A stretch of DNA of 64,000 nucleotides from an uncultured Devosia sp. (GTDB taxonomy: Bacteria; Pseudomonadota; Alphaproteobacteria; Rhizobiales; Devosiaceae), in contig NZ_CAXTKA010000013.1 in NCBI RefSeq assembly GCF_964244875.1, positions 41,577 to 105,576 on the forward strand, read 5' to 3'. The translations under genes and the position numbers were made by a program. Position 1 is the first letter of the stretch, and every line of letters begins with the position of its first letter. The notes below the pieces were generated by a model. That model worked only from the letters and a program-made list of their open reading frames with translations, had not been told where the DNA came from and did no database searches. Shown here one piece after another: positions 21,942-57,557 of this stretch.

Positions 21942-23426
21942 CTAGGCCGCGTCGCTGACGAGGGTTTGCGCGAGGCCATATTCGTGCAGCTTGCGATAGA
22001 GCGTCGAGCGGCCGATCTTGAGGGCACGAGCAACTTGAGACATGCGGCCGCCATAATGCTCGATGGCAAAAACGATGGCCGCGCGTTCGATTTCGGCCAA
22101 GGCGGTGACTTCGCCCGTGGGGGTGACGAAACGATCGATCGGGGCAATGGTGTCGGGGGCATAGCGTTGGCGGCCCAGGGCATTGTCGATGTGGATCGGA
22201 CTTTGTTGCACGGGCGCTGCCTCGATGGCCCGCGCGGCCAGTTCGCGGCCGCCGGTCTGGGCGACGATCTGGGGAAAATCGACGGTTTCGAGGAAGGCTC
22301 CATCGGTCAGGACGATAGCGCGATAGACTGCGTTTTCCAACTGGCGGATATTGCCGGGCCAGCTGTAGCCGGTCAGCAGGTCGAGCGCGGCGGGCGAAAT
22401 GCCGAGGACGCGCTTGCCGGCTTCGGCGGCGAAGCGGGCGACAAAATGGGTGACCAATGCCGGCACATCCTCGATGCGCTCGCGCAATGGCGGCACGTAG
22501 ATGGGATAGACGTTGAGCCGATAGTACAGGTCCTCGCGAAATTCGCCGGACTTGGCCAGGTTGAGCAGGCGCCGGTTGGTGGCGGAGATGAGCCGGACAT
22601 TGACCCGTTCGGGCCGGGTAGCGCCGAGCGGCTCGATTTCGCCCTCCTGCAGGGCGCGCAGCAGCTTGACCTGGACCGCCTGGGGGAGTTCGCCCACTTC
22701 ATCGAGAAACAGCGTGCCGTTGTGGGCTTCGGCGAACTTGCCTGCCTGGTCGGCGATGGCACCGGTGAAGCTGCCCTTCTTGTGGCCGAACAGGATGGAT
22801 TCCACCAGATTGGGGGGAATGGCGCCGCAGTTGACGGTGATGAACGGCTTGCCGGCGCGATCGCCCGTGCCCTGGATGATGCGGGCAATCAGTTCCTTGC
22901 CGGCGCCGGTCTCCCCTTCGATGAGTACCGGGATGGGGCTTTTGGCGGCCTTGGCACACAGCGAGAGCACGCGGGCCATGGCGGGTGCCTTAGCGATCAT
23001 GTCGGCGGCGGTGAAGGTGCCGGAGCGGCGCGCGCGTTCGGAGCGAATGGCGGTTTCCAGAGCATCCAGCTTCATGGCGTTGCGCAGCGAAATGACCAGA
23101 CGCTCGGGGGCAACCGGCTTGACGAAATAGTCGGCCGCGCCCTGACGCATGGCGGTGACGACGGTTTCGAGCGATGCATTGGCAGTCTGGATGATGACGG
23201 GCGTGGCGAGCCCTTCGCGGGTCATCACTTCCATAACGCCCATGCCGTCGAGGTCGGGCATGACCAGATCAAGGATCATGGCGCCGATATTGCGATCCTC
23301 GCGCAGGATGGCCAGCGCCTGTTCGCCGCCGGTGGCGAGCAAAGGCTTGAAGCCGGCGCGATTGGCCACTTCGGCGGTCAGGCGCAACTGCACCGGATCA
23401 TCGTCAACAATCAGAACCCGCGTCAT
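21942..23426 (-). CDS. tacA: Sigma54-dependent response regulator (REC-AAA+-HTH), TacA-like
   Basis: GETGAGKE, ESILFGHKKGSFTGA, WPGNIRQLEN, IGRSTLYRK; divergent from pepF as in rhizobia; upstream CtrA box. Confidence 0.8.
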   Translation of the reverse strand: MTRVLIVDDDPVQLRLTAEVANRAGFKPLLATGGEQALAILREDRNIGAMILDLVMPDLDGMGVMEVMTREGLATPVIIQTANASLETVVTAMRQGAADYFVKPVAPERLVISLRNAMKLDALETAIRSERARRSGTFTAADMIAKAPAMARVLSLCAKAAKSPIPVLIEGETGAGKELIARIIQGTGDRAGKPFITVNCGAIPPNLVESILFGHKKGSFTGAIADQAGKFAEAHNGTLFLDEVGELPQAVQVKLLRALQEGEIEPLGATRPERVNVRLISATNRRLLNLAKSGEFREDLYYRLNVYPIYVPPLRERIEDVPALVTHFVARFAAEAGKRVLGISPAALDLLTGYSWPGNIRQLENAVYRAIVLTDGAFLETVDFPQIVAQTGGRELAARAIEAAPVQQSPIHIDNALGRQRYAPDTIAPIDRFVTPTGEVTALAEIERAAIVFAIEHYGGRMSQVARALKIGRSTLYRKLHEYGLAQTLVSDAA

Positions 23427-23492: not shown

Positions 23493-23507
23493 TTAAGAGG
23501 GGATTAA
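23493..23507. promoter_or_regulatory. CtrA binding box upstream of tacA
   Basis: TTAA-GAGGGGA-TTAA (TTAA-N7-TTAA). Confidence 0.75.
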
Positions 23508-23613
23508 TCATGGGAATTTGCCTGATCGACCGGGGTTATCGGTGCCGCTCTTCACATCCGCAGTTCCGCTGGCTATGGTCCGCGCTCATTTCGGACCAGC
23601 CGGAGAGCATGCC

Positions 23614-25425
23614 ATGACCGATCAAGCCGCAAGCCAGAAGGGGCACAATCAGCTGGGGGCCCTGCCGGTCTGGGATCTGGCGGATTTGTATCCGGGCCGG
23701 GACAGCGCCGAGTTCAAGGCTGACCTGGAGCGGGCCAAAGCGGACGCAGCGGCGTTCGAAGCCGACTACAAGGGCAAGCTGACGGAGCTGACCAAGGCCG
23801 GTCGGCTGATCGAGGCCATCACGCGGACGGAGGCGCTGGGCGATTTGACCGGCAAGATCGGCTCGTTCTCGTTTTTGCAGTATGCGCAGAACACCATCGA
23901 TCCCGATCGTGCCAAGTTCATGGGCGATACCAACGAGGCGCTGACGAACCTGTCCACCAAAGTATTGTTTTTCGAGCTGGAGCTGAACCGGATCGATGAC
24001 GATGTGTTGGAGGCGGCCTTCGCACAGAGCCCGGAGCTGGCGCGCTATCGCACCTGGTTCGCCGAACTGCGCAAGGCCAAGCCGTACCAGCTCGACGACA
24101 AGCTCGAAGAGCTGTTCCGCGACAAGTCGGTGACTGCCTATTCGGCGTGGAACCGGCTTTACGACGAGACGCTGGCGAGCCTGCGGCTGGAGGTCGACGG
24201 GGAGACGCTGACGTTGGAAGCGGCGTTGCACCTGTTGTCCGAGCGTGACGGGGCCAAGCGCGAAAGCGCCTATCATGCCATCAGCAAGACGCTGGGTGAA
24301 AACGCGCGGCTGTTCACCCACATCACCAATGTGTTGGCCAAGGACAAGGAAATCTCCGATCGCTGGCGCGGTTACGAGGACATCGCCGACAGCCGGCACA
24401 TGGCCAATTCGGTGGAGCGCGAGGTGGTCGATGCGCTGCAAAGCGCGGTGCGCGAGGCCTATCCGCGGCTCAGCCATCGCTACTACAAGATGAAGGCACG
24501 CTGGTTCGGCAAGGACAAGCTCAATGCCTGGGACCGCAATGCGCCGCTGCCCACCAGCGACGAGCGGACTTGGGACTGGGACAGCGCGGTCTCGACGGTG
24601 CTGGAGGCCTATGGCAAATTTTCGCCCAAGCTGGCGGAAGTGGCGGCGCCGTTCTTCAATTCGGGCTGGATCGATGCGCCGGTGGGGGAGGGCAAGCTTT
24701 CGGGCGCCTTTGCACACCCGACCGTGCCCAGCGCTCATCCCTATCTGATGCTCAACTATATGGGCCGCTCGCGCGATATCATGACGCTGGCCCATGAATT
24801 GGGCCATGGTGTGCATCAGCGCCTGGCGGCGGCACAGGGGCCGCTGCTGAGCAACACGCCGCTGACGCTGGCCGAGACGGCCTCGGTGTTCGGCGAGATG
24901 CTGACGTTCCGCTCGCTTCTGGCCAAGACCACCGATCCCAAGCAGCGCTTTGCACTGCTGAGCTCCAAGGTCGAGGACATGCTCAACACGGTGGTGCGGC
25001 AGATCGCCTTCTACAGCTTCGAGCGCAAGGTGCATACGGCGCGCCGGCAGGGCGAGCTACGAGCCGAGGAAATCAATGCCATCTGGCTGGACGTGCAGGC
25101 GGAATCGCTGGGCGAGGGCATCGCGCTCAACGAGGGCTACGAGATCTTCTGGAGCTATATCCCGCACTTCATCCATTCCCCGTTCTACGTCTATGCCTAT
25201 GCGTTCGGCGATTGCCTTGTGAACTCGCTCTACGCGCAGTATGAGAAGGCCGAAGACGGCTTTGCGGATCGCTATTTCGAACTGCTCAAAGCCGGCGGCT
25301 CCAAGCACCATTCCGAACTGCTGGCGCCGTTCGGGCTTGATGCGAAGGACCCGCAGTTCTGGTCGCTGGGTTTGTCGATGATCGAAGGCTTGATCGACGA
25401 ACTGGACGCAACCAGCCCGAATTGA
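23614..25425 (+). CDS. pepF: Oligoendopeptidase F (M3B)
   Basis: LPVWDLADLY, GAFAHP, TLAHELGHGVH (HExxH), HSPFYVYAYAFG. Confidence 0.95.
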   Translation: MTDQAASQKGHNQLGALPVWDLADLYPGRDSAEFKADLERAKADAAAFEADYKGKLTELTKAGRLIEAITRTEALGDLTGKIGSFSFLQYAQNTIDPDRAKFMGDTNEALTNLSTKVLFFELELNRIDDDVLEAAFAQSPELARYRTWFAELRKAKPYQLDDKLEELFRDKSVTAYSAWNRLYDETLASLRLEVDGETLTLEAALHLLSERDGAKRESAYHAISKTLGENARLFTHITNVLAKDKEISDRWRGYEDIADSRHMANSVEREVVDALQSAVREAYPRLSHRYYKMKARWFGKDKLNAWDRNAPLPTSDERTWDWDSAVSTVLEAYGKFSPKLAEVAAPFFNSGWIDAPVGEGKLSGAFAHPTVPSAHPYLMLNYMGRSRDIMTLAHELGHGVHQRLAAAQGPLLSNTPLTLAETASVFGEMLTFRSLLAKTTDPKQRFALLSSKVEDMLNTVVRQIAFYSFERKVHTARRQGELRAEEINAIWLDVQAESLGEGIALNEGYEIFWSYIPHFIHSPFYVYAYAFGDCLVNSLYAQYEKAEDGFADRYFELLKAGGSKHHSELLAPFGLDAKDPQFWSLGLSMIEGLIDELDATSPN

Positions 25426-37355: not shown

Positions 37356-38084
37356 CTAGTTGTCGGTGTCGCTCTTGAGCGATTTGAGGCGGGCAAAGAC
37401 CGAGTCCGCGTCGAATTCGTCCTGCTGCTCGGGCGCGTGGTTGGCACCGGTGCCGAAATCGGGGGCATCGGGATCGCTGTGGCCGCGCGCCCCGGAACGG
37501 GCCATCGCCTCTTCGGCGGTCATCAGCGTCGTGCCTTCCTCGGCCTCGTCGGGGCCGACGACACCCTTGGAGGCGCGCTTGACCTCGAGATCGAGATCGA
37601 TCTGGCTGCACAGGCCCAGCGTCACCGGGTCCATTGCCGCCAGGTTGGCGGCATTCCAATGGGTGGATTCGCGCACCGAATCGATGGTCGACTTGGTGGT
37701 GCCAACCAGGCGCATGATCTGGGCATCCTTGAGCTCGGGATGGTTGCGGACCAGCCACTTGATGGCATTGGGGCGCTCGTTGCGACGCGAAATGGGGGTA
37801 TAGCGCGGGCCCTTGCGCTTGGCGGCGGCGACGCGCACCTTGGGTTCCAGCAGCGTCAGGCGATAATTGGGATTGGCTTCGGCCTTCTCGATTTCCTCGC
37901 GCGTCAACTGCCCATTCTGGATCGGATTGGCGCCCATGATGCCGCCAGCGACGTCACCATCGGCGATGCCCTGAACTTCAAGCGGATGCAAGGTACAGAA
38001 CGCGGCGATCTGTTCGAACGACAGCGCCGTGTTGTCGACCAGCCAAACGGCGGTCGCCTTGGGCATCAGCAAGGGCTGGGTCAT
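37356..38084 (-). CDS. trcR: DUF1013 cell-cycle transcription factor TrcR-like
   Basis: MPKATAVWLVDNTALSFEQIA.FC.LHPLEV, GPRYTP, HWNAANL..MDPVTLGLCSQ. Confidence 0.85.
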   Translation of the reverse strand: MTQPLLMPKATAVWLVDNTALSFEQIAAFCTLHPLEVQGIADGDVAGGIMGANPIQNGQLTREEIEKAEANPNYRLTLLEPKVRVAAAKRKGPRYTPISRRNERPNAIKWLVRNHPELKDAQIMRLVGTTKSTIDSVRESTHWNAANLAAMDPVTLGLCSQIDLDLEVKRASKGVVGPDEAEEGTTLMTAEEAMARSGARGHSDPDAPDFGTGANHAPEQQDEFDADSVFARLKSLKSDTDN

Positions 38085-38282
38085 GATAATACTCTCCTCG
38101 TGGCGCGGCCGGTCTTCCTCCGGGCCGCTCCGCCTCTTTGCGTGATGCTGAGGGGGAACACACACAATATATGGGTTTGGTCGTTAAACTGCAACGACAA
38201 TGTCGCTGCAACCATCGCGGCAAAGCCGTGTTGCACATAGCCGGAAGCGGGTTAAGCTTGGATTGGACCGATGGAGGCGGGG

Positions 38283-38465
38283 ATGGACGAGGACGGGATC
38301 GGCAAACCCTTGGGGCACCAAGTCGGCATGGTGCTCGATGCCATGTCGGTGGAAGAATTGCAGGAGCGGATCGCCATGCTCGAGGCCGAGATCGCACGGC
38401 TGAACGGGGCCATCGCGGCGCGCAACAAGACCCGCACCGATGCCGATGCCCTGTTCAAGTTTTAA
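38283..38465 (+). CDS. DUF1192 family small coiled-coil protein
   Basis: MSVEELQERIAMLEAEIARL...ADALFK. Confidence 0.85.
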   Translation: MDEDGIGKPLGHQVGMVLDAMSVEELQERIAMLEAEIARLNGAIAARNKTRTDADALFKF

Positions 38466-38519
38466 CCGGGCTTGGGTTCGGCGGTCAGGCAAGGGGTAAG
38501 GTTAAGAAATTGGCTGCTG

Positions 38520-38535
38520 TTAACGTGCAATTAAC
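38520..38535 (+). promoter_or_regulatory. Consensus CtrA box
   Basis: TTAA-CGTGCAA-TTAAC; extra TTAA half-sites at 38462 and 38502. Confidence 0.8.
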
Positions 38536-38555
38536 GAGTGGGCGGTAACCTCGCC

Positions 38556-38648
38556 TTGTTCAGGCTTTTCTGGATGTTCAGAGCGATTTCTCCCTCTGTT
38601 TGACGCCTCCCTGTTAACTTCGAGAGCCGTTCTTACGGCTCTTTTTTT
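38556..38648 (+). ncRNA. Candidate small regulatory RNA (5' end approximate)
   Basis: Lies between the CtrA box and a strong terminator; has no ORF in the track; two C/U-rich CUCCCU motifs (38590, 38607). Confidence 0.5.
38623..38648 (+). terminator. Intrinsic terminator
   Basis: AGAGCCGT-TCTT-ACGGCTCT followed by a T run. Confidence 0.85.
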
Positions 38649-38764
38649 GTTTGCTGTTTTGGGCAGGTGCTTGATCTTAAAGCTCTTTTCAGGCTGTTGG
38701 CAGTCCGGGGATGACGGGGGCGCGGTTTGCCGCTAGACTGGCGCGCAAAGCCTGTGGAGGATGC

Positions 38765-39283
38765 GTGGCCGAGATCAGCGACAAGGGACAGGCGATCGCC
38801 ATCGGCCCGCGCATCGTGGCGTCGGGCGGGTTCGACCTGTTGTATCGCGAGGGCATGACGCTGATCGAGGAGGTCGCGTCCTATCTCGATAGCGACGGGC
38901 GCGCCGATAGCCGGCTGTTGCCGCGCGAGTCATCGTTTCTGTACGCCACCGAGTCCATGCGCCTGACGACGCGGCTGATGCAGCTGGCCTCGTGGCTATT
39001 GCTGCAGCGGGCGGTCAACGAAGGCGAAATCACCGCCGAAAATGCCCGCTCCGAAAAGGAAAAGGTCAAGTTTTCCGCCACCCCCTCGGAGCGCGGCGGA
39101 CCGGGCTACGAACATCTGCCCGCCGTGCTGCGCGCCTATATCGACAAGGGCGACCGCCTGTTCGACAAGGTCATGCAGTTCGACGTTCTGGAGCGCGGCA
39201 AGGTAAGCCTTGCGGATGCGGGGACGGCCAACGGTATCGTGGATCAGTTGGCGCGGCTCAAGGCGGCGTTCGGGCGAGCGTAG
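38765..39283 (+). CDS. rcdA: DUF1465 regulator of CtrA degradation RcdA
   Basis: LYREGMTLIEEVASYLD..GR, YATESMRLTTRLMQLASWLLLQRAV; GTG behind GGAGG; convergent with rpmE. Confidence 0.88.
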   Translation: MAEISDKGQAIAIGPRIVASGGFDLLYREGMTLIEEVASYLDSDGRADSRLLPRESSFLYATESMRLTTRLMQLASWLLLQRAVNEGEITAENARSEKEKVKFSATPSERGGPGYEHLPAVLRAYIDKGDRLFDKVMQFDVLERGKVSLADAGTANGIVDQLARLKAAFGRA

Positions 39284-39290
39284 CTACTGG

Positions 39291-39437
39291 GTCATCGCGC
39301 CACGCCCTCGTGGTTCGAGGCTCGTGAAGGCTTGCACCTCTCCATGAGGGCTACTGGAAAATCGTGCTGCCTGAGTAGCCCTCATGGTGAGGTGGGAGCG
39401 TAGCGACCCTCGAACCACGAGGGCGTGCCACAATGAT
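39291..39437. repeat. Palindromic MITE/RIME-like repeat, family A copy 1
   Basis: Perfect 20-bp terminal IR CACGCCCTCGTGGTTCGAGG (39301) / CCTCGAACCACGAGGGCGTG (39408) plus internal IR CCATGAGGGCTAC/GTAGCCCTCATGG. Confidence 0.85.
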
Positions 39438-39465
39438 ACGCAAGGATAGTTGTCTCGCCCAAACA

Positions 39466-39493
39466 AAAAGCCCGGCGCAATGGCCGGGCTTTT
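39466..39493 (-). terminator. Intrinsic terminator of rpmE (likely bidirectional)
   Basis: AAAAGCCCGGC-GCAATG-GCCGGGCTTTT. Confidence 0.85.
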
Positions 39494-39513
39494 GAATTCG
39501 CTGGGAACTGGCC

Positions 39514-57369: not shown

Positions 57370-57527
57370 AAGGCTGCTGCCCGGTGCGTGTGGATACCTT
57401 TTATCCCCGGGGCCTTAACGATCCTAAGGGAGCTGTCCCTGACTGGGCTCCTGGGCTCAGACATACGGCGCCCACCTACGTAAAGTAGGTTCCCGGGATC
57501 GTGTATCCCACGGCCAGGGCGGCACCT
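57370..57527 (+). ncRNA. ssrS: 6S RNA (ends approximate)
   Basis: CCCCGGGGCCTTAACGATCCTAAGGGAGCTGTCCCT...ACATACGGCGCCCACC core; ends pair (GCTGCCC/GGGCGGC); conserved zapA-6S-ygfA position; TTGCAC -35 at 57341. Confidence 0.9.
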
Positions 57528-57557
57528 CATTTCCGGCGGACGGATACGCGGCGCGGC

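What the first reader, a model, noticed from the sequence alone, without database searches (positions are those of the whole stretch)
38500..38650. Candidate CtrA-driven small RNA with two anti-Shine-Dalgarno motifs directly upstream of rcdA
Seen: consensus TTAA-N7-TTAAC (38520-38535), then about 90 nt with no listed ORF containing a CAGAG/CTCTG hairpin with a C/U-rich loop (CUCCCU, 38590), a second CCUCCCU (38606), and a perfect 8-bp terminator with a U tract, ending about 115 nt before rcdA. Known: CtrA boxes overlap the -35 of activated promoters, alphaproteobacterial Hfq sRNAs use CUCCC seeds against GGGAG/GGAGG RBSs, and RcdA delivers CtrA to ClpXP. Inference: either a cell-cycle sRNA in the CtrA regulon, or a terminating leader that gates rcdA read-through (rcdA itself has a GGAGG RBS). 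Both would be a feedback layer on CtrA proteolysis. I cannot assign it to a named family.
Basis: partly seen in the sequence, partly recalled or inferred. Interest (0 to 1): 0.72.

Follow-up and report, generated by a model that had tools for sequence, protein, structure and literature searches.

The report
Known sRNA with CtrA-box promoter
The stretch upstream of rcdA encodes a roughly 91-nt small RNA of an already described family (Rfam BjrC1505, S. meliloti SmelC671/sm84); what may be new is that its promoter carries a CtrA cell-cycle box conserved across more than 100 species, and that in many relatives its seed matches the ribosome-binding site of rcdA.

Summary
TTAA-N7-TTAAC lies at 38520-38535 and is unique in the 64 kb window (0.00 expected). 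It is followed by two hairpins, a single-stranded CCUCCCU at 38606-38612, and an intrinsic terminator at 38622-38648.

The RNA is not unnamed. It scores 56.8 bits against Rfam RF02356 BjrC1505 (gathering score 50). It sits in the same DUF1192 > sRNA > rcdA slot as S. meliloti SmelC671/sm84, which has been detected by Northern blot and RNA-seq.

In 120 related loci, almost all Hyphomicrobiales:
- The CtrA-type box is the most conserved promoter element, at a fixed offset (114 of 116 loci match at least 7 of 8 half-site bases).
- Hairpin 1 covaries.
- The seed's three free positions are invariant.

A published A. fabrum transcription start, labelled as a "secondary rcdA" start, puts the box's first base at -39. 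That is the geometry of CtrA-activated promoters in Caulobacter.

An independent, probably CtrA-activated sRNA is therefore well supported. The rcdA-leader idea is disfavoured.

rcdA as a direct target is suggestive: its Shine-Dalgarno reads GAGGCGU in many lineages. The signal is limited to some lineages, and in this window the match is only 5 nt.

No transcript or CtrA-binding data exist for this organism.

The parts
38271..38465 (+). DUF1192 gene (64 aa). This is the upstream neighbour. No terminator of its own lies before the sRNA terminator.
   Evidence: Pfam PF06698, E 8.9e-17. No + strand terminator between 38465 and 38622. The same neighbour is present in about 90 of the 120 loci and in S. 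meliloti as SMc03988.
38502..38506 (+). Extra TTAAG half-site 18 nt upstream of the box, within GGTTAAGAAA. Conserved only in the Devosia-group loci.
   Evidence: Seen in the window, L045 and L058. L052 and L063 carry GGTTAC at the same place. Function not tested.
38520..38535 (+). CtrA-type box TTAA-N7-TTAAC (GTTAAC...TTAAC, near-palindromic). Inferred activator site overlapping the -35 region of the sRNA promoter.
   Evidence: Unique in the window. At least 7 of 8 half-site bases at a fixed offset in 114 of 116 loci, against 0.35% of background windows. It is the highest-information block among 62 representatives less than 70% identical. Its 5' base is at -39 from the mapped A. fabrum start. 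Caulobacter full CtrA motifs start near -35, and at -39 for ctrA P2.
38544..38549 (+). -10-like element GGTAAC. Relatives carry TATGAC, CATTAC or TATAAC here.
   Evidence: Aligned position is conserved 9-10 nt after the box. In A. fabrum the equivalent ATTAC ends at -8. No sigma-70 consensus promoter is found in the region.
38558..38648 (+). Inferred sRNA transcript of about 91 nt. The start is placed at 38557-38559 by transfer from the A. fabrum start. The 3' end is the U tract.
   Evidence: Rfam RF02356, 56.8 bits. My covariance model R1 matches 38555-38615. S. meliloti SmelC671 is 101 nt by RNA-seq and about 80 nt on Northern blots. No RNA run exists for this organism.
38558..38575 (+). Hairpin 1: GUUCAGG / CUUU / UCUGGAU (7 pairs, 3 of them G-U).
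   Evidence: 4 of 6 modelled pairs show changes on both sides across 92 distinct sequences, and 97.7% of cells are paired. Stem variants include ATCCAG/CTGGAT, GTCCGG/CCGGAC, GTCCC/GGGAC and ATCCAC/GTGGAT.
38579..38598 (+). Hairpin 2: CAGAG ... CUCUG with a C/U-rich loop. This is the Devosia variant of the common GAGUGG-CUCCUGU-CCACUC.
   Evidence: 2 of 6 pairs show compensatory changes, and 99.6% of cells are paired.
38599..38616 (+). Single-stranded seed UUUGACGCCUCCCUGUUA, with CCUCCCU at 38606-38612.
   Evidence: Lies outside the conserved helices and is unpaired in the centroid fold. Near-invariant in the Rfam consensus. The three positions left free in my search pattern are G, G, T in all 117 sequences.
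38622..38648 (+). Intrinsic terminator: GAGAGCCGU-UCUU-ACGGCUCUU plus U7.
   Evidence: 44 distinct compensating stem versions across the loci. RNA-run contigs of Bradyrhizobium end exactly at the homologous U tract.
38677..38691 (+). Second, weaker CtrA-like box TTAA-N7-TTCA between the terminator and rcdA. Candidate promoter element of rcdA itself.
   Evidence: 7 of 8 match, conserved in Devosia loci L045, L048 and L101. At least 7 of 8 in 21% of loci, against 0.6% of background. S. meliloti has TAACCCTTTCTTAAG 38 nt after the SmelC671 3' end and 34 nt before the rcdA start at 2986607.
38756..38760 (+). rcdA Shine-Dalgarno GGAGG. Only 5 nt are complementary to the seed in this genome.
   Evidence: Relatives carry GAGGCGU, GGAGGCGUC or AGGGAGGCG here.
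38765..39283 (+). rcdA (DUF1465, adaptor for CtrA proteolysis). GTG 38765 is the likely start; ATG 38711 opens the longest ORF.
   Evidence: Pfam PF07323, E 8e-50. It is the same-strand downstream neighbour in nearly every locus with enough sequence.

Best explanation
This is the Devosia orthologue of the sRNA family known as BjrC1505 (Rfam RF02356), SmelC671/sm84 or ReC71.

**Shown**
- It belongs to the family.
- It has the conserved architecture and the same gene neighbourhood.
- The RNA structure covaries.

**Inferred from homology**
- Transcription starts at about 38558. The promoter's -35 region is replaced by a full CtrA box (38520-38535, 5' base near -38) with a weak -10 (GGTAAC).
- Transcription stops at the intrinsic terminator (38622-38648), giving an RNA of about 91 nt. 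DUF1192 read-through transcripts probably share this terminator.

**Inferred**
- Phosphorylated CtrA activates this promoter, so the sRNA accumulates when CtrA is active.

**Inferred by analogy with other alphaproteobacterial C-rich sRNAs**
- The RNA acts in trans through its invariant single-stranded seed UUGACGCCUCCCUGU. The seed would pair with G-rich ribosome-binding regions and lower translation.

**Suggestive only**
- One target may be the adjacent rcdA mRNA. CtrA would then restrain or delay synthesis of the adaptor that delivers it to ClpXP.
For: **Family membership**
- 56.8 bits against a gathering score of 50.
- 8 of 8 tested relatives score 55-129 bits, including B. diazoefficiens.
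- The DUF1192 > sRNA > DUF1465 order is the same as for SmelC671.

**Independent gene**
- It is single-copy in 93 of 93 sources.
- Hairpin 1 covaries: 4 of 6 pairs change on both sides, 0 of 500 shuffles reach the observed values, and slid controls pair in only 20-49% of cells.
- The terminator stems compensate.
- Discrete RNAs are reported in S. meliloti and M. extorquens.

**Promoter**
- The box is unique in the window.
- It is conserved at a fixed offset in 114 of 116 loci and is the most informative block of the upstream region.
- In A. fabrum C58, the start at 824764 has TTAA-N7-TTAA beginning at -39 and ATTAC ending at -8.
- Caulobacter CtrA-activated promoters carry the full motif with its 5' base near -35, and at -39 for ctrA P2. 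Six Caulobacter ncRNAs, and rcdA, are CtrA-controlled.
- No sigma-70 consensus is present, and no promoter motif was assigned to SmelC671.
- In S. meliloti, CtrA ChIP-seq finds binding at the "rcdA promoter" although rcdA mRNA does not respond to CtrA depletion.

**Seed and target**
- The seed is invariant.
- A perfect complement of at least 7 nt occurs in 43% of rcdA 5' regions. The figures are 6.7% for random segments, 15% for DUF1192, 3.6% for rpmE and 0% for trcR.
- The dominant word is GAGGCGU, placed at the SD.
- CGU follows GAGG in 54% of rcdA contexts, against 4.4% of other SD-like contexts.
Against: - No RNA run exists for this organism, so the start and the expression are inferred.
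- RNA contigs from Bradyrhizobium and from metatranscriptomes run across the box region. The Rfam model also starts upstream of the box. Longer read-through species therefore exist, and an upstream start in some lineages is not excluded.
- About half of the loci have a 7 of 8 box: TTTA in Bradyrhizobium and TTAG in Methyloceanibacter.
- No CtrA-binding or CtrA-dependence data resolve this box. The S. meliloti ChIP peak could come from the second, rcdA-proximal box.
- A published S. meliloti CtrA-motif scan lists only that downstream box.
- SmelC671 has no Hfq co-IP entry in the review table, and it was detected in all bulk conditions tested.
- Complementarity to rcdA is limited to some lineages: 5 of 24 deep clusters.
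- Duplex-energy z-scores are modest, -0.5 to -0.9.
- In this window the match is only 5 nt.
Confidence: 0.7

Rival explanations
1. It is a cis-acting terminating leader of rcdA. Transcription from the CtrA-box promoter mostly stops at the hairpin, and regulated read-through (or cis pairing of the anti-SD with the rcdA SD in read-through transcripts) sets rcdA expression.
For: It lies on the same strand, directly upstream of rcdA, in nearly all loci. The A. fabrum start was itself annotated as a secondary rcdA start with a 263-nt UTR. Some RNA contigs continue past the terminator (X8, X18). The seed is complementary to the rcdA SD in many lineages, and this pairing could equally act in cis.
Against: The terminator is strong and conserved: 8-11 GC-rich pairs plus U6-8. 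The spacing from terminator to rcdA is variable and unconserved, 53-350 nt. rcdA has its own starts downstream of the sRNA in S. meliloti (2986607 and others) and A. fabrum (824954), and often its own CtrA-like box. Discrete RNAs of about 80-100 nt are seen on Northern blots. No alternative anti-terminator pairing is evident. rcdA mRNA is unaffected by CtrA depletion in S. meliloti.
Confidence: 0.1
2. The hairpin is merely the terminator of the DUF1192 mRNA. The "sRNA" would be its 3' UTR or a stable degradation or processing product, and the TTAA repeats would be incidental.
For: No other terminator follows DUF1192. RNA contigs in Bradyrhizobium runs extend from upstream of the box to the terminator.
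Against: The box and the -10-like element are conserved at a fixed distance while the surrounding sequence is not. A primary start was mapped immediately downstream of them in A. fabrum by dRNA-seq. Hairpin 1 covaries and the seed is invariant, which a plain 3' UTR would not need. The cassette is kept where DUF1192 lies 300-700 nt away (L050, L071, L097).
Confidence: 0.08
3. The RNA is an independent sRNA, but the conserved TTAA-N7-TTAA element is not used by CtrA as an activator. It could be bound by another factor, act as a repressor site, or simply be the AT-rich core of an unusual promoter.
For: Many lineages have an imperfect half-site: TTTAC, TTAGG or GTAAC. SmelC671 was detected in all bulk conditions. 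No direct binding data exist for this box.
Against: The 11-bp phasing and the TTAA halves are exactly the conserved positions. The position relative to the mapped start (-39) equals that of CtrA-activated promoters. CtrA ChIP-seq signal exists at this intergenic region in S. meliloti. The neighbours are cell-cycle genes: trcR, rcdA and a second box.
Confidence: 0.15

Closest known systems
BjrC1505 / SmelC671 (sm84) / ReC71 sRNA family (Rfam RF02356)
   Same: It scores above the family's gathering threshold. It occupies the same DUF1192 > sRNA > rcdA(DUF1465) slot. It has the same hairpins, the same UGUUUGACGCCUCCCUGUU stretch and the same terminator. The family is reported in Rhizobiaceae, Brucellaceae, Phyllobacteriaceae, Bradyrhizobiaceae and Methylobacteriaceae.
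   Different: It is a Devosiaceae member with a variant hairpin 2 (CAGAG/CUCUG, loop UUUCUCC instead of CUCCUGU) and a low score (56.8 bits). The Rfam model's first 45 or so positions align to what is here promoter DNA, namely the box and the -10. None of the papers I could search links the family to CtrA or to rcdA as a target. The only stated function is a predicted acetolactate synthase target.
CcnA of Caulobacter crescentus
   Same: Works alike, by inference. CcnA is an ncRNA whose promoter has a CtrA site and whose level follows CtrA. It uses a C-rich unpaired motif (CCCC) against G-rich RBS regions of cell-cycle mRNAs. The CcnA authors found no clear homologue in S. meliloti.
   Different: No sequence relationship is detected; the only Rfam hit is RF02356. 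CcnA is 182 nt and lies in the replication origin, not upstream of rcdA. Its shown targets are ctrA (activation) and gcrA. None of this has been shown for the present family.
MmgR / alpha-r8 (Rfam RF00519 suhB) and other anti-SD sRNAs of alpha-rhizobia (AbcR1/2, NfeR1)
   Same: A short sRNA with an unpaired CCUCCCU followed by a terminator. There is local similarity to the suhB model over 38585-38656.
   Different: The score is 23.2 bits against a gathering score of 41, so it is not a member. The 5' domain, the genomic context and the promoter type all differ.
EcpR1 (SmelC291) and GspR (SmelC775), the S. meliloti cell-cycle sRNAs
   Same: Trans-acting sRNAs in the same order of bacteria that act on the cell-cycle regulator mRNAs dnaA, gcrA and ctrA.
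   Different: The loci differ: divK-pleD/rpmG and SMc03844/45. They are induced by stress or stationary phase, with no CtrA box reported. GspR is restricted to Sinorhizobium.

Membership tests
Rfam RF02356 BjrC1505 (= SmelC671/sm84) | Covariance-model score at or above the curated gathering score (50 bits) | tested here: met
   56.8 bits, E 5.5e-08, full-length match at 38512-38648. Relatives score 55-129 bits.
Rfam RF02356 BjrC1505 (= SmelC671/sm84) | Microsynteny: lies between a DUF1192 gene and the DUF1465/rcdA gene, on the same strand | tested here: met
   Pfam assignments of both neighbours. Published S. meliloti coordinates are SMc03988 / SmelC671 / SMc03989. The same order holds in the 120 loci.
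Rfam RF02356 BjrC1505 (= SmelC671/sm84) | Rho-independent terminator and conserved internal hairpins | tested here: met
   Terminator. Hairpins 1 and 2 are paired in 98.7% of cells, with 6 of 12 pairs changed on both sides.
Rfam RF02356 BjrC1505 (= SmelC671/sm84) | Expressed as a discrete small transcript | not testable with these tools
   No RNA run holds this genome. Related metatranscriptome contigs are of low depth and not delimiting. Expression is documented for relatives only.
CtrA-activated promoter (full-motif class) | TTAA-N7-TTAA(C) motif | tested here: met
   38520-38535, unique in the window. Conserved in 114 of 116 loci at 7 of 8 or better.
CtrA-activated promoter (full-motif class) | 5' base of the motif at about -35 to -39 from the transcription start | tested here: inconclusive
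   The start is not mapped in this organism. In the A. fabrum orthologue the motif starts at -39 from a dRNA-seq start, matching Caulobacter. Transfer to the window gives -37 to -39.
CtrA-activated promoter (full-motif class) | CtrA binding and CtrA-dependent, cell-cycle-phased transcription | not testable with these tools
   Only indirect evidence exists: a S. meliloti ChIP-seq peak assigned to the rcdA promoter region, not resolved between the two boxes.
CcnA (Caulobacter) | Sequence or structure homology to CcnA and location in the replication origin | tested here: not met
   The only family reaching threshold is RF02356. Whether Rfam holds a CcnA model was not checked, so this rests mainly on location: between DUF1192 and rcdA, not at an origin. 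Functional resemblance only.
MmgR / suhB RF00519 | Score at or above the gathering score (41 bits) | tested here: not met
   23.2 bits, E 0.013 in a 451-nt search.
Hfq-dependent anti-SD sRNA | Hfq binding, and base pairing at target ribosome-binding sites | not testable with these tools
   The SmelC671 row has empty Hfq co-IP and promoter-motif cells in the review table. Pairing is predicted only.

The most novel reading that the evidence does not exclude
The SmelC671/BjrC1505 family would be the CtrA-activated, cell-cycle-phased riboregulator of the Hyphomicrobiales, the functional counterpart of Caulobacter CcnA that was not found in S. meliloti. Its invariant seed (ACGCCUCCC) would occlude the Shine-Dalgarno of the adjacent rcdA mRNA (GAGGCGU in many lineages). 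Together with the second, rcdA-proximal CtrA box, this would form an incoherent feed-forward loop in which CtrA both transcribes rcdA and delays its translation. That would time CtrA's own ClpXP-dependent destruction. It would also explain why CtrA binds the "rcdA promoter" in S. meliloti without changing rcdA mRNA.
Probability: 0.3. Interest if true: 0.75.

Novelty: new member of a known kind. Interest (0 to 1): 0.5.

Why it matters
The RNA itself is ordinary, another member of a catalogued family. That family, however, has had no known regulator or verified target since 2008-2012.

This analysis supports three points:
- Its promoter is a CtrA-box promoter conserved across the order.
- CtrA boxes and distal transcription starts that published work assigned to rcdA, explicitly in A. 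fabrum and possibly in S. meliloti, probably belong to this sRNA.
- rcdA's ribosome-binding site is often complementary to the seed.

If confirmed, this would add an RNA layer to the control of CtrA proteolysis in rhizobia, Brucella relatives and other Hyphomicrobiales. It would also give a concrete candidate for the CcnA-like function sought in S. meliloti. The experiments are simple in existing model strains, which already have CtrA depletion strains, synchronisable cultures and GFP fusion systems.

Tried and rejected
- **Identity with EcpR1 or GspR.** Rejected: they lie at different loci.
- **MmgR/suhB membership.** Rejected at 23 bits against a gathering score of 41.
- **MAFFT plus RNAalifold on 117 sequences.** It found no hairpins because the indel-rich stems were misaligned. 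I replaced it with a covariance-model alignment.
- **Transcript ends from public runs.**
  - No run holds this genome.
  - Contigs from Bradyrhizobium runs and from metatranscriptomes confirm the 3' end but merge with upstream read-through, so they cannot place the start.
- **Published B. japonicum start sites.** The supplement is cut before the locus, and the Madhugiri 2012 paper is not held.
- **S. meliloti start-site table rows for SmelC671.** Not in the stored part.
- **S. meliloti DNA.**
  - The plasmid collection gave no match.
  - The RcdA homologue search returned Mesorhizobium-like proteins only.
  - The sRNA's own box in S. meliloti therefore remains unexamined.
- **CpdR next to the sRNA in Bradyrhizobium** (a guess from the name "1505"). 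Not found in the loci.
- **Duplex-energy tests of seed against the rcdA 5' region.** These gave only modest shifts, mean z of -0.5 to -0.9. The exact-complement test was more informative, but it weakens at deep-lineage level.
- **A 9-codon ORF inside the RNA (38574-38603).** Dismissed because it is absent from relatives.
Full report
**1. What is in the sequence**

The intergenic region 38466-38764 lies between two genes on the + strand. One is a 64-aa DUF1192 gene (38271-38465). The other is a DUF1465 gene, the RcdA family (ORF 38711-39283; likely start GTG 38765 behind GGAGG). A TrcR cell-cycle regulator gene diverges upstream, and rpmE converges downstream.

- TTAACGTGCAATTAAC lies at 38520-38535.
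- The CAGAG/CUCUG hairpin lies at 38579-38598.
- CCUCCCU lies at 38606-38612.
- An 8-bp (plus one G-U) terminator with a U7 tract lies at 38622-38648.

The box is the only TTAA-N7-TTAAC in 64 kb, against 0.00 expected. No ORF of 30 aa or more occupies the stretch. The 106-nt RNA folds with z = -2.7.

**2. It is a named family**

Rfam's gathering-threshold scan gives RF02356 BjrC1505 at 38512-38648, with 56.8 bits against a gathering score of 50. The next best family, suhB/MmgR, reaches only 23 of 41 bits.

The literature describes the S. meliloti sRNA sm84 = SmelC671 (R. etli ReC71).
- It lies between SMc03988 (DUF1192) and SMc03989 (DUF1465/rcdA), on the same strand, at coordinates 2986421-2986521.
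- It is about 101 nt by RNA-seq and about 80 nt on Northern blots.
- It has relatives in Rhizobiaceae, Brucellaceae, Phyllobacteriaceae, Bradyrhizobiaceae and Methylobacteriaceae (PMC2573895, PMC3927594).

BjrC1505 was also confirmed by Northern blot in Methylorubrum extorquens. The only function mentioned there is a predicted acetolactate-synthase target (bioRxiv 10.1101/2022.01.24.477521).

It is not EcpR1 (divK/rpmG locus) and not GspR. The RNA as such is therefore not new.

**3. Comparative anatomy**

I made an exact-pattern scan of one genome per species with CTCTGTTTNACNCCTCCCNGT. Nearly all are Hyphomicrobiales, plus Parvibaculum: Bradyrhizobium, Afipia, Nitrobacter, Pseudolabrys, Devosia, Stappia, Roseibium, Bosea, Microvirga, Ancylobacter, Chelatococcus, Methyloceanibacter, Hyphomicrobium and others.

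The closest relatives are Devosia. D. limi RcdA is 86% identical and L31 is 99% identical, so the window is probably from a Devosia species.

Three results follow.
- Eight of eight tested loci pass RF02356, including B. diazoefficiens at 129 bits.
- rcdA follows on the same strand wherever enough sequence is held. DUF1192 precedes in about 90 loci.
- A 60-position covariance model of hairpin 1, hairpin 2 and the seed finds exactly one copy in each of 93 sources.

On that alignment, 98.7% of cells pair. Six of 12 pairs show changes on both sides: 4 of 6 in hairpin 1 and 2 of 6 in hairpin 2. No shuffle out of 500 reaches the observed values, and slid controls pair in only 20-49% of cells. The terminator shows 44 compensating stem versions.

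The hairpin-2 loop is CUCCUGU in most lineages. It is UUU, CAC or UCG in several, and UUUCUCC in Devosia. Only the downstream CCUCCCU is therefore a universal unpaired C-rich motif.

Invariance of the seed is partly imposed by my search pattern. However, its three free positions are identical in all 117 sequences, and the Rfam consensus agrees.

**4. The promoter**

I anchored each locus on the best TTAA-N7-TTAA match 66-83 nt upstream of the seed.
- 51 loci match 8 of 8 half-site bases and 63 match 7 of 8, out of 116.
- Scores of 7 or more occur in only 0.35% of background windows.
- Among 62 representatives less than 70% identical over this region, the two half-sites are the most informative columns. 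They are followed by GCTTTC and a -10-like (T/C)AT(G/T/A)AC 9-10 nt later. Sequence further upstream is not conserved.

The region shows conservation without covariation, whereas hairpin 1 immediately downstream covaries. That pattern fits promoter DNA followed by transcribed RNA.

The Rfam model's first 45 or so positions cover the box. In the window they align with many non-canonical pairs. I read that as a seed alignment whose 5' end is too long.

Direct support comes from the dRNA-seq start-site table of A. fabrum C58 (PMC10469942, supplement).
- A start at 824764 (+) is labelled "Atu3742 secondary", with a 263-nt UTR.
- Its -50..+1 sequence is TTCGTTTACCATTAACCAAAAATTAAGCTTTCTGAGAGATTACTATACATG. 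I read the last base of this 51-nt column as the start (my assumption about the table's convention).
- This is the same architecture, with the box starting at -39 and ATTAC ending at -8.
- A separate "primary" rcdA start lies 190 nt downstream.

In Caulobacter, full CtrA motifs of activated promoters have their 5' base near -35, and at -39 at ctrA P2. Six ncRNAs, and rcdA, belong to that regulon (PMC4287350).

By transfer, the window's start is at 38557-38559 and the RNA is about 91 nt. This fits the 101 nt reported for SmelC671. No sigma-70 consensus is present, and the review table assigns no promoter motif to SmelC671.

**5. Reinterpreting published CtrA data**

Pini et al. found CtrA ChIP-seq binding in the "rcdA promoter region" of S. 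meliloti, but no change in rcdA mRNA on CtrA depletion (PMC4433202). The agrobacterial study noted CtrA sites "further upstream" than in Caulobacter and multiple rcdA starts. Both observations are what one expects if the distal box and start belong to the sRNA.

There is a caveat. Schlüter et al. list a CtrA motif (TAACCCTTTCTTAAG, 2986559-73) that lies 38 nt downstream of the SmelC671 3' end and 34 nt upstream of an rcdA start. A second, rcdA-proximal box therefore exists.

I find such a second box enriched between terminator and rcdA in the loci. It scores at least 7 of 8 in 21% of loci, against 0.6% of background. It is perfect in the Rhizobiaceae- and Phyllobacteriaceae-like loci. In the window it is a 7 of 8 version at 38677-38691, conserved among Devosia.

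I could not retrieve the S. meliloti DNA to inspect the sRNA's own box there.

**6. Leader or independent sRNA?**

Four observations argue for an independent gene.
- The terminator is strong and conserved.
- The spacer from terminator to rcdA is 53-350 nt and unconserved.
- rcdA has its own mapped starts.
- Discrete small RNAs are seen in relatives.

DUF1192 has no terminator of its own. RNA-run contigs of Bradyrhizobium extend from upstream of the box and stop exactly at the sRNA's U tract (X5, X22). The terminator is therefore shared with DUF1192 read-through transcripts. These contigs cannot resolve an internal start.

**7. Mechanism and target**

The likeliest mechanism is trans pairing of the invariant unpaired UUGACGCCUCCCUGU with G-rich ribosome-binding regions. 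This rests on analogy with other alphaproteobacterial C-rich sRNAs, which is my own knowledge plus the CcnA paper.

I tested the neighbours as candidate targets.
- Duplex energies gave only modest shifts for rcdA, mean z of -0.5 to -0.9. The other neighbours gave about 0 to +0.6.
- Exact complementarity was clearer. A perfect complement of at least 7 nt occurs in 43% of rcdA 5' regions. The figures are 6.7% for random segments, 15% for DUF1192, 3.6% for rpmE and 0% for trcR.
- The recurring word is GAGGCGU, 5-10 nt before the start codon. It consists of the SD plus a CGU extension that does not match the 16S 3' end as I recall it.
- It occurs in Xanthobacteraceae and Bradyrhizobiaceae, and in Roseibium/Labrenzia (L016, L084) and L036. 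D. limi has GGAGGCGUC and Chelatococcus has AGGGAGGCG.
- CGU follows GAGG in 54% of rcdA contexts, against 4.4% of other SD-like contexts in the same loci. Fisher's P is about 1e-21, not corrected for phylogeny.

After clustering by RcdA identity the signal persists but weakens. It holds in 17 of 54 clusters at 80% identity and in 5 of 24 at 65% identity, against 6.7% in the per-segment background. In this window only GGAGG (5 nt) matches. I therefore rate "rcdA is a direct target" as suggestive, at about 0.3 for the family and lower for this genome.

If it is true, and given the two boxes, CtrA would both transcribe rcdA and delay its translation through the sRNA.

**8. Verdict**

- The RNA is a new member of a known family.
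- The CtrA-box promoter has strong comparative support, plus one experimental start in a relative.
- The leader model is disfavoured.
- The feedback on CtrA proteolysis is an attractive and testable hypothesis, but it is unproven.
- The searchable literature holds no paper connecting this family with CtrA, though subscription journals were not searched. From memory only, and not verifiable here, the 2012 BjrC1505 paper reported lower levels in nodules. That would fit loss of CtrA in bacteroids.

Noticed in passing
window 57371-57529 (+): 6S RNA (SsrS): Rfam RF00013, 72.6 bits against a gathering score of 46.4.
   Followed up: no
window 39292-39436: Nested inverted repeats lie between the rcdA stop and rpmE. 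The outer arms are 33 nt (39292-39324 and 39404-39436, 88% complementary). The inner arms are 26 nt (39330-39355 and 39374-39399). Together they would form a hairpin of about 145 nt, resembling a REP- or MITE-like element. A separate GC hairpin with a T-run follows at about 39458-39495.
   Followed up: partly
window 23493-23507: This is the only other TTAA-N7-TTAA in the window (TTAAGAGGGGATTAA). It lies in the divergent region between an ORF on the minus strand (21942-23426) and a peptidase-like ORF (23518-25425). By eye the first looks like a receiver-domain, sigma-54-type activator and the second like an M3 oligoendopeptidase; neither was scanned against Pfam. This may be another CtrA-regulon promoter.
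   Followed up: no
window 38677-38691: A second, weaker CtrA-like box (TTAAAGCTCTTTTCA) lies between the sRNA terminator and rcdA. It is conserved in Devosia loci and paralleled by perfect boxes in Rhizobiaceae- and Phyllobacteriaceae-like loci and in S. meliloti. It favours GTG 38765 as the rcdA start.
   Followed up: yes
window 37356-38165 (-) to 39283: There is a cluster of cell-cycle genes: trcR (PF06242, transcriptional cell cycle regulator) diverges from DUF1192-sRNA-rcdA. trcR lies within about 2.5 kb upstream in about 28 of the loci.
   Followed up: partly
window 38512-38556, and L027:7380-7425: The first 45 or so positions of the Rfam RF02356 model align to the CtrA box and the -10 region. 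These lie upstream of the start mapped in A. fabrum. The 5' helices of the model are full of non-canonical pairs in the window. The family model probably includes non-transcribed promoter DNA.
   Followed up: partly
L113:1563-1670 (Bradyrhizobium MAG, contig NZ_JAFAVV010000005.1): Here the sRNA cassette lies on the strand opposite to both DUF1192 and rcdA. This is either a local inversion or an assembly artefact.
   Followed up: no
window 38574-38603: A 9-codon ORF lies inside the sRNA (ATG TTC AGA GCG ATT TCT CCC TCT GTT TGA). The ATG is absent from the other lineages, so it is probably fortuitous.
   Followed up: partly
L001, L010, L014 and other Bradyrhizobium loci, about -110 to -95 from the seed: A genus-conserved GGCCGACATGGCAAAC lies about 30 nt upstream of the box, preceded by a small TCGGCC..GGCCGA hairpin. 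RNA contigs begin or continue there. This could be an additional upstream start or a processing site specific to Bradyrhizobium.
   Followed up: no
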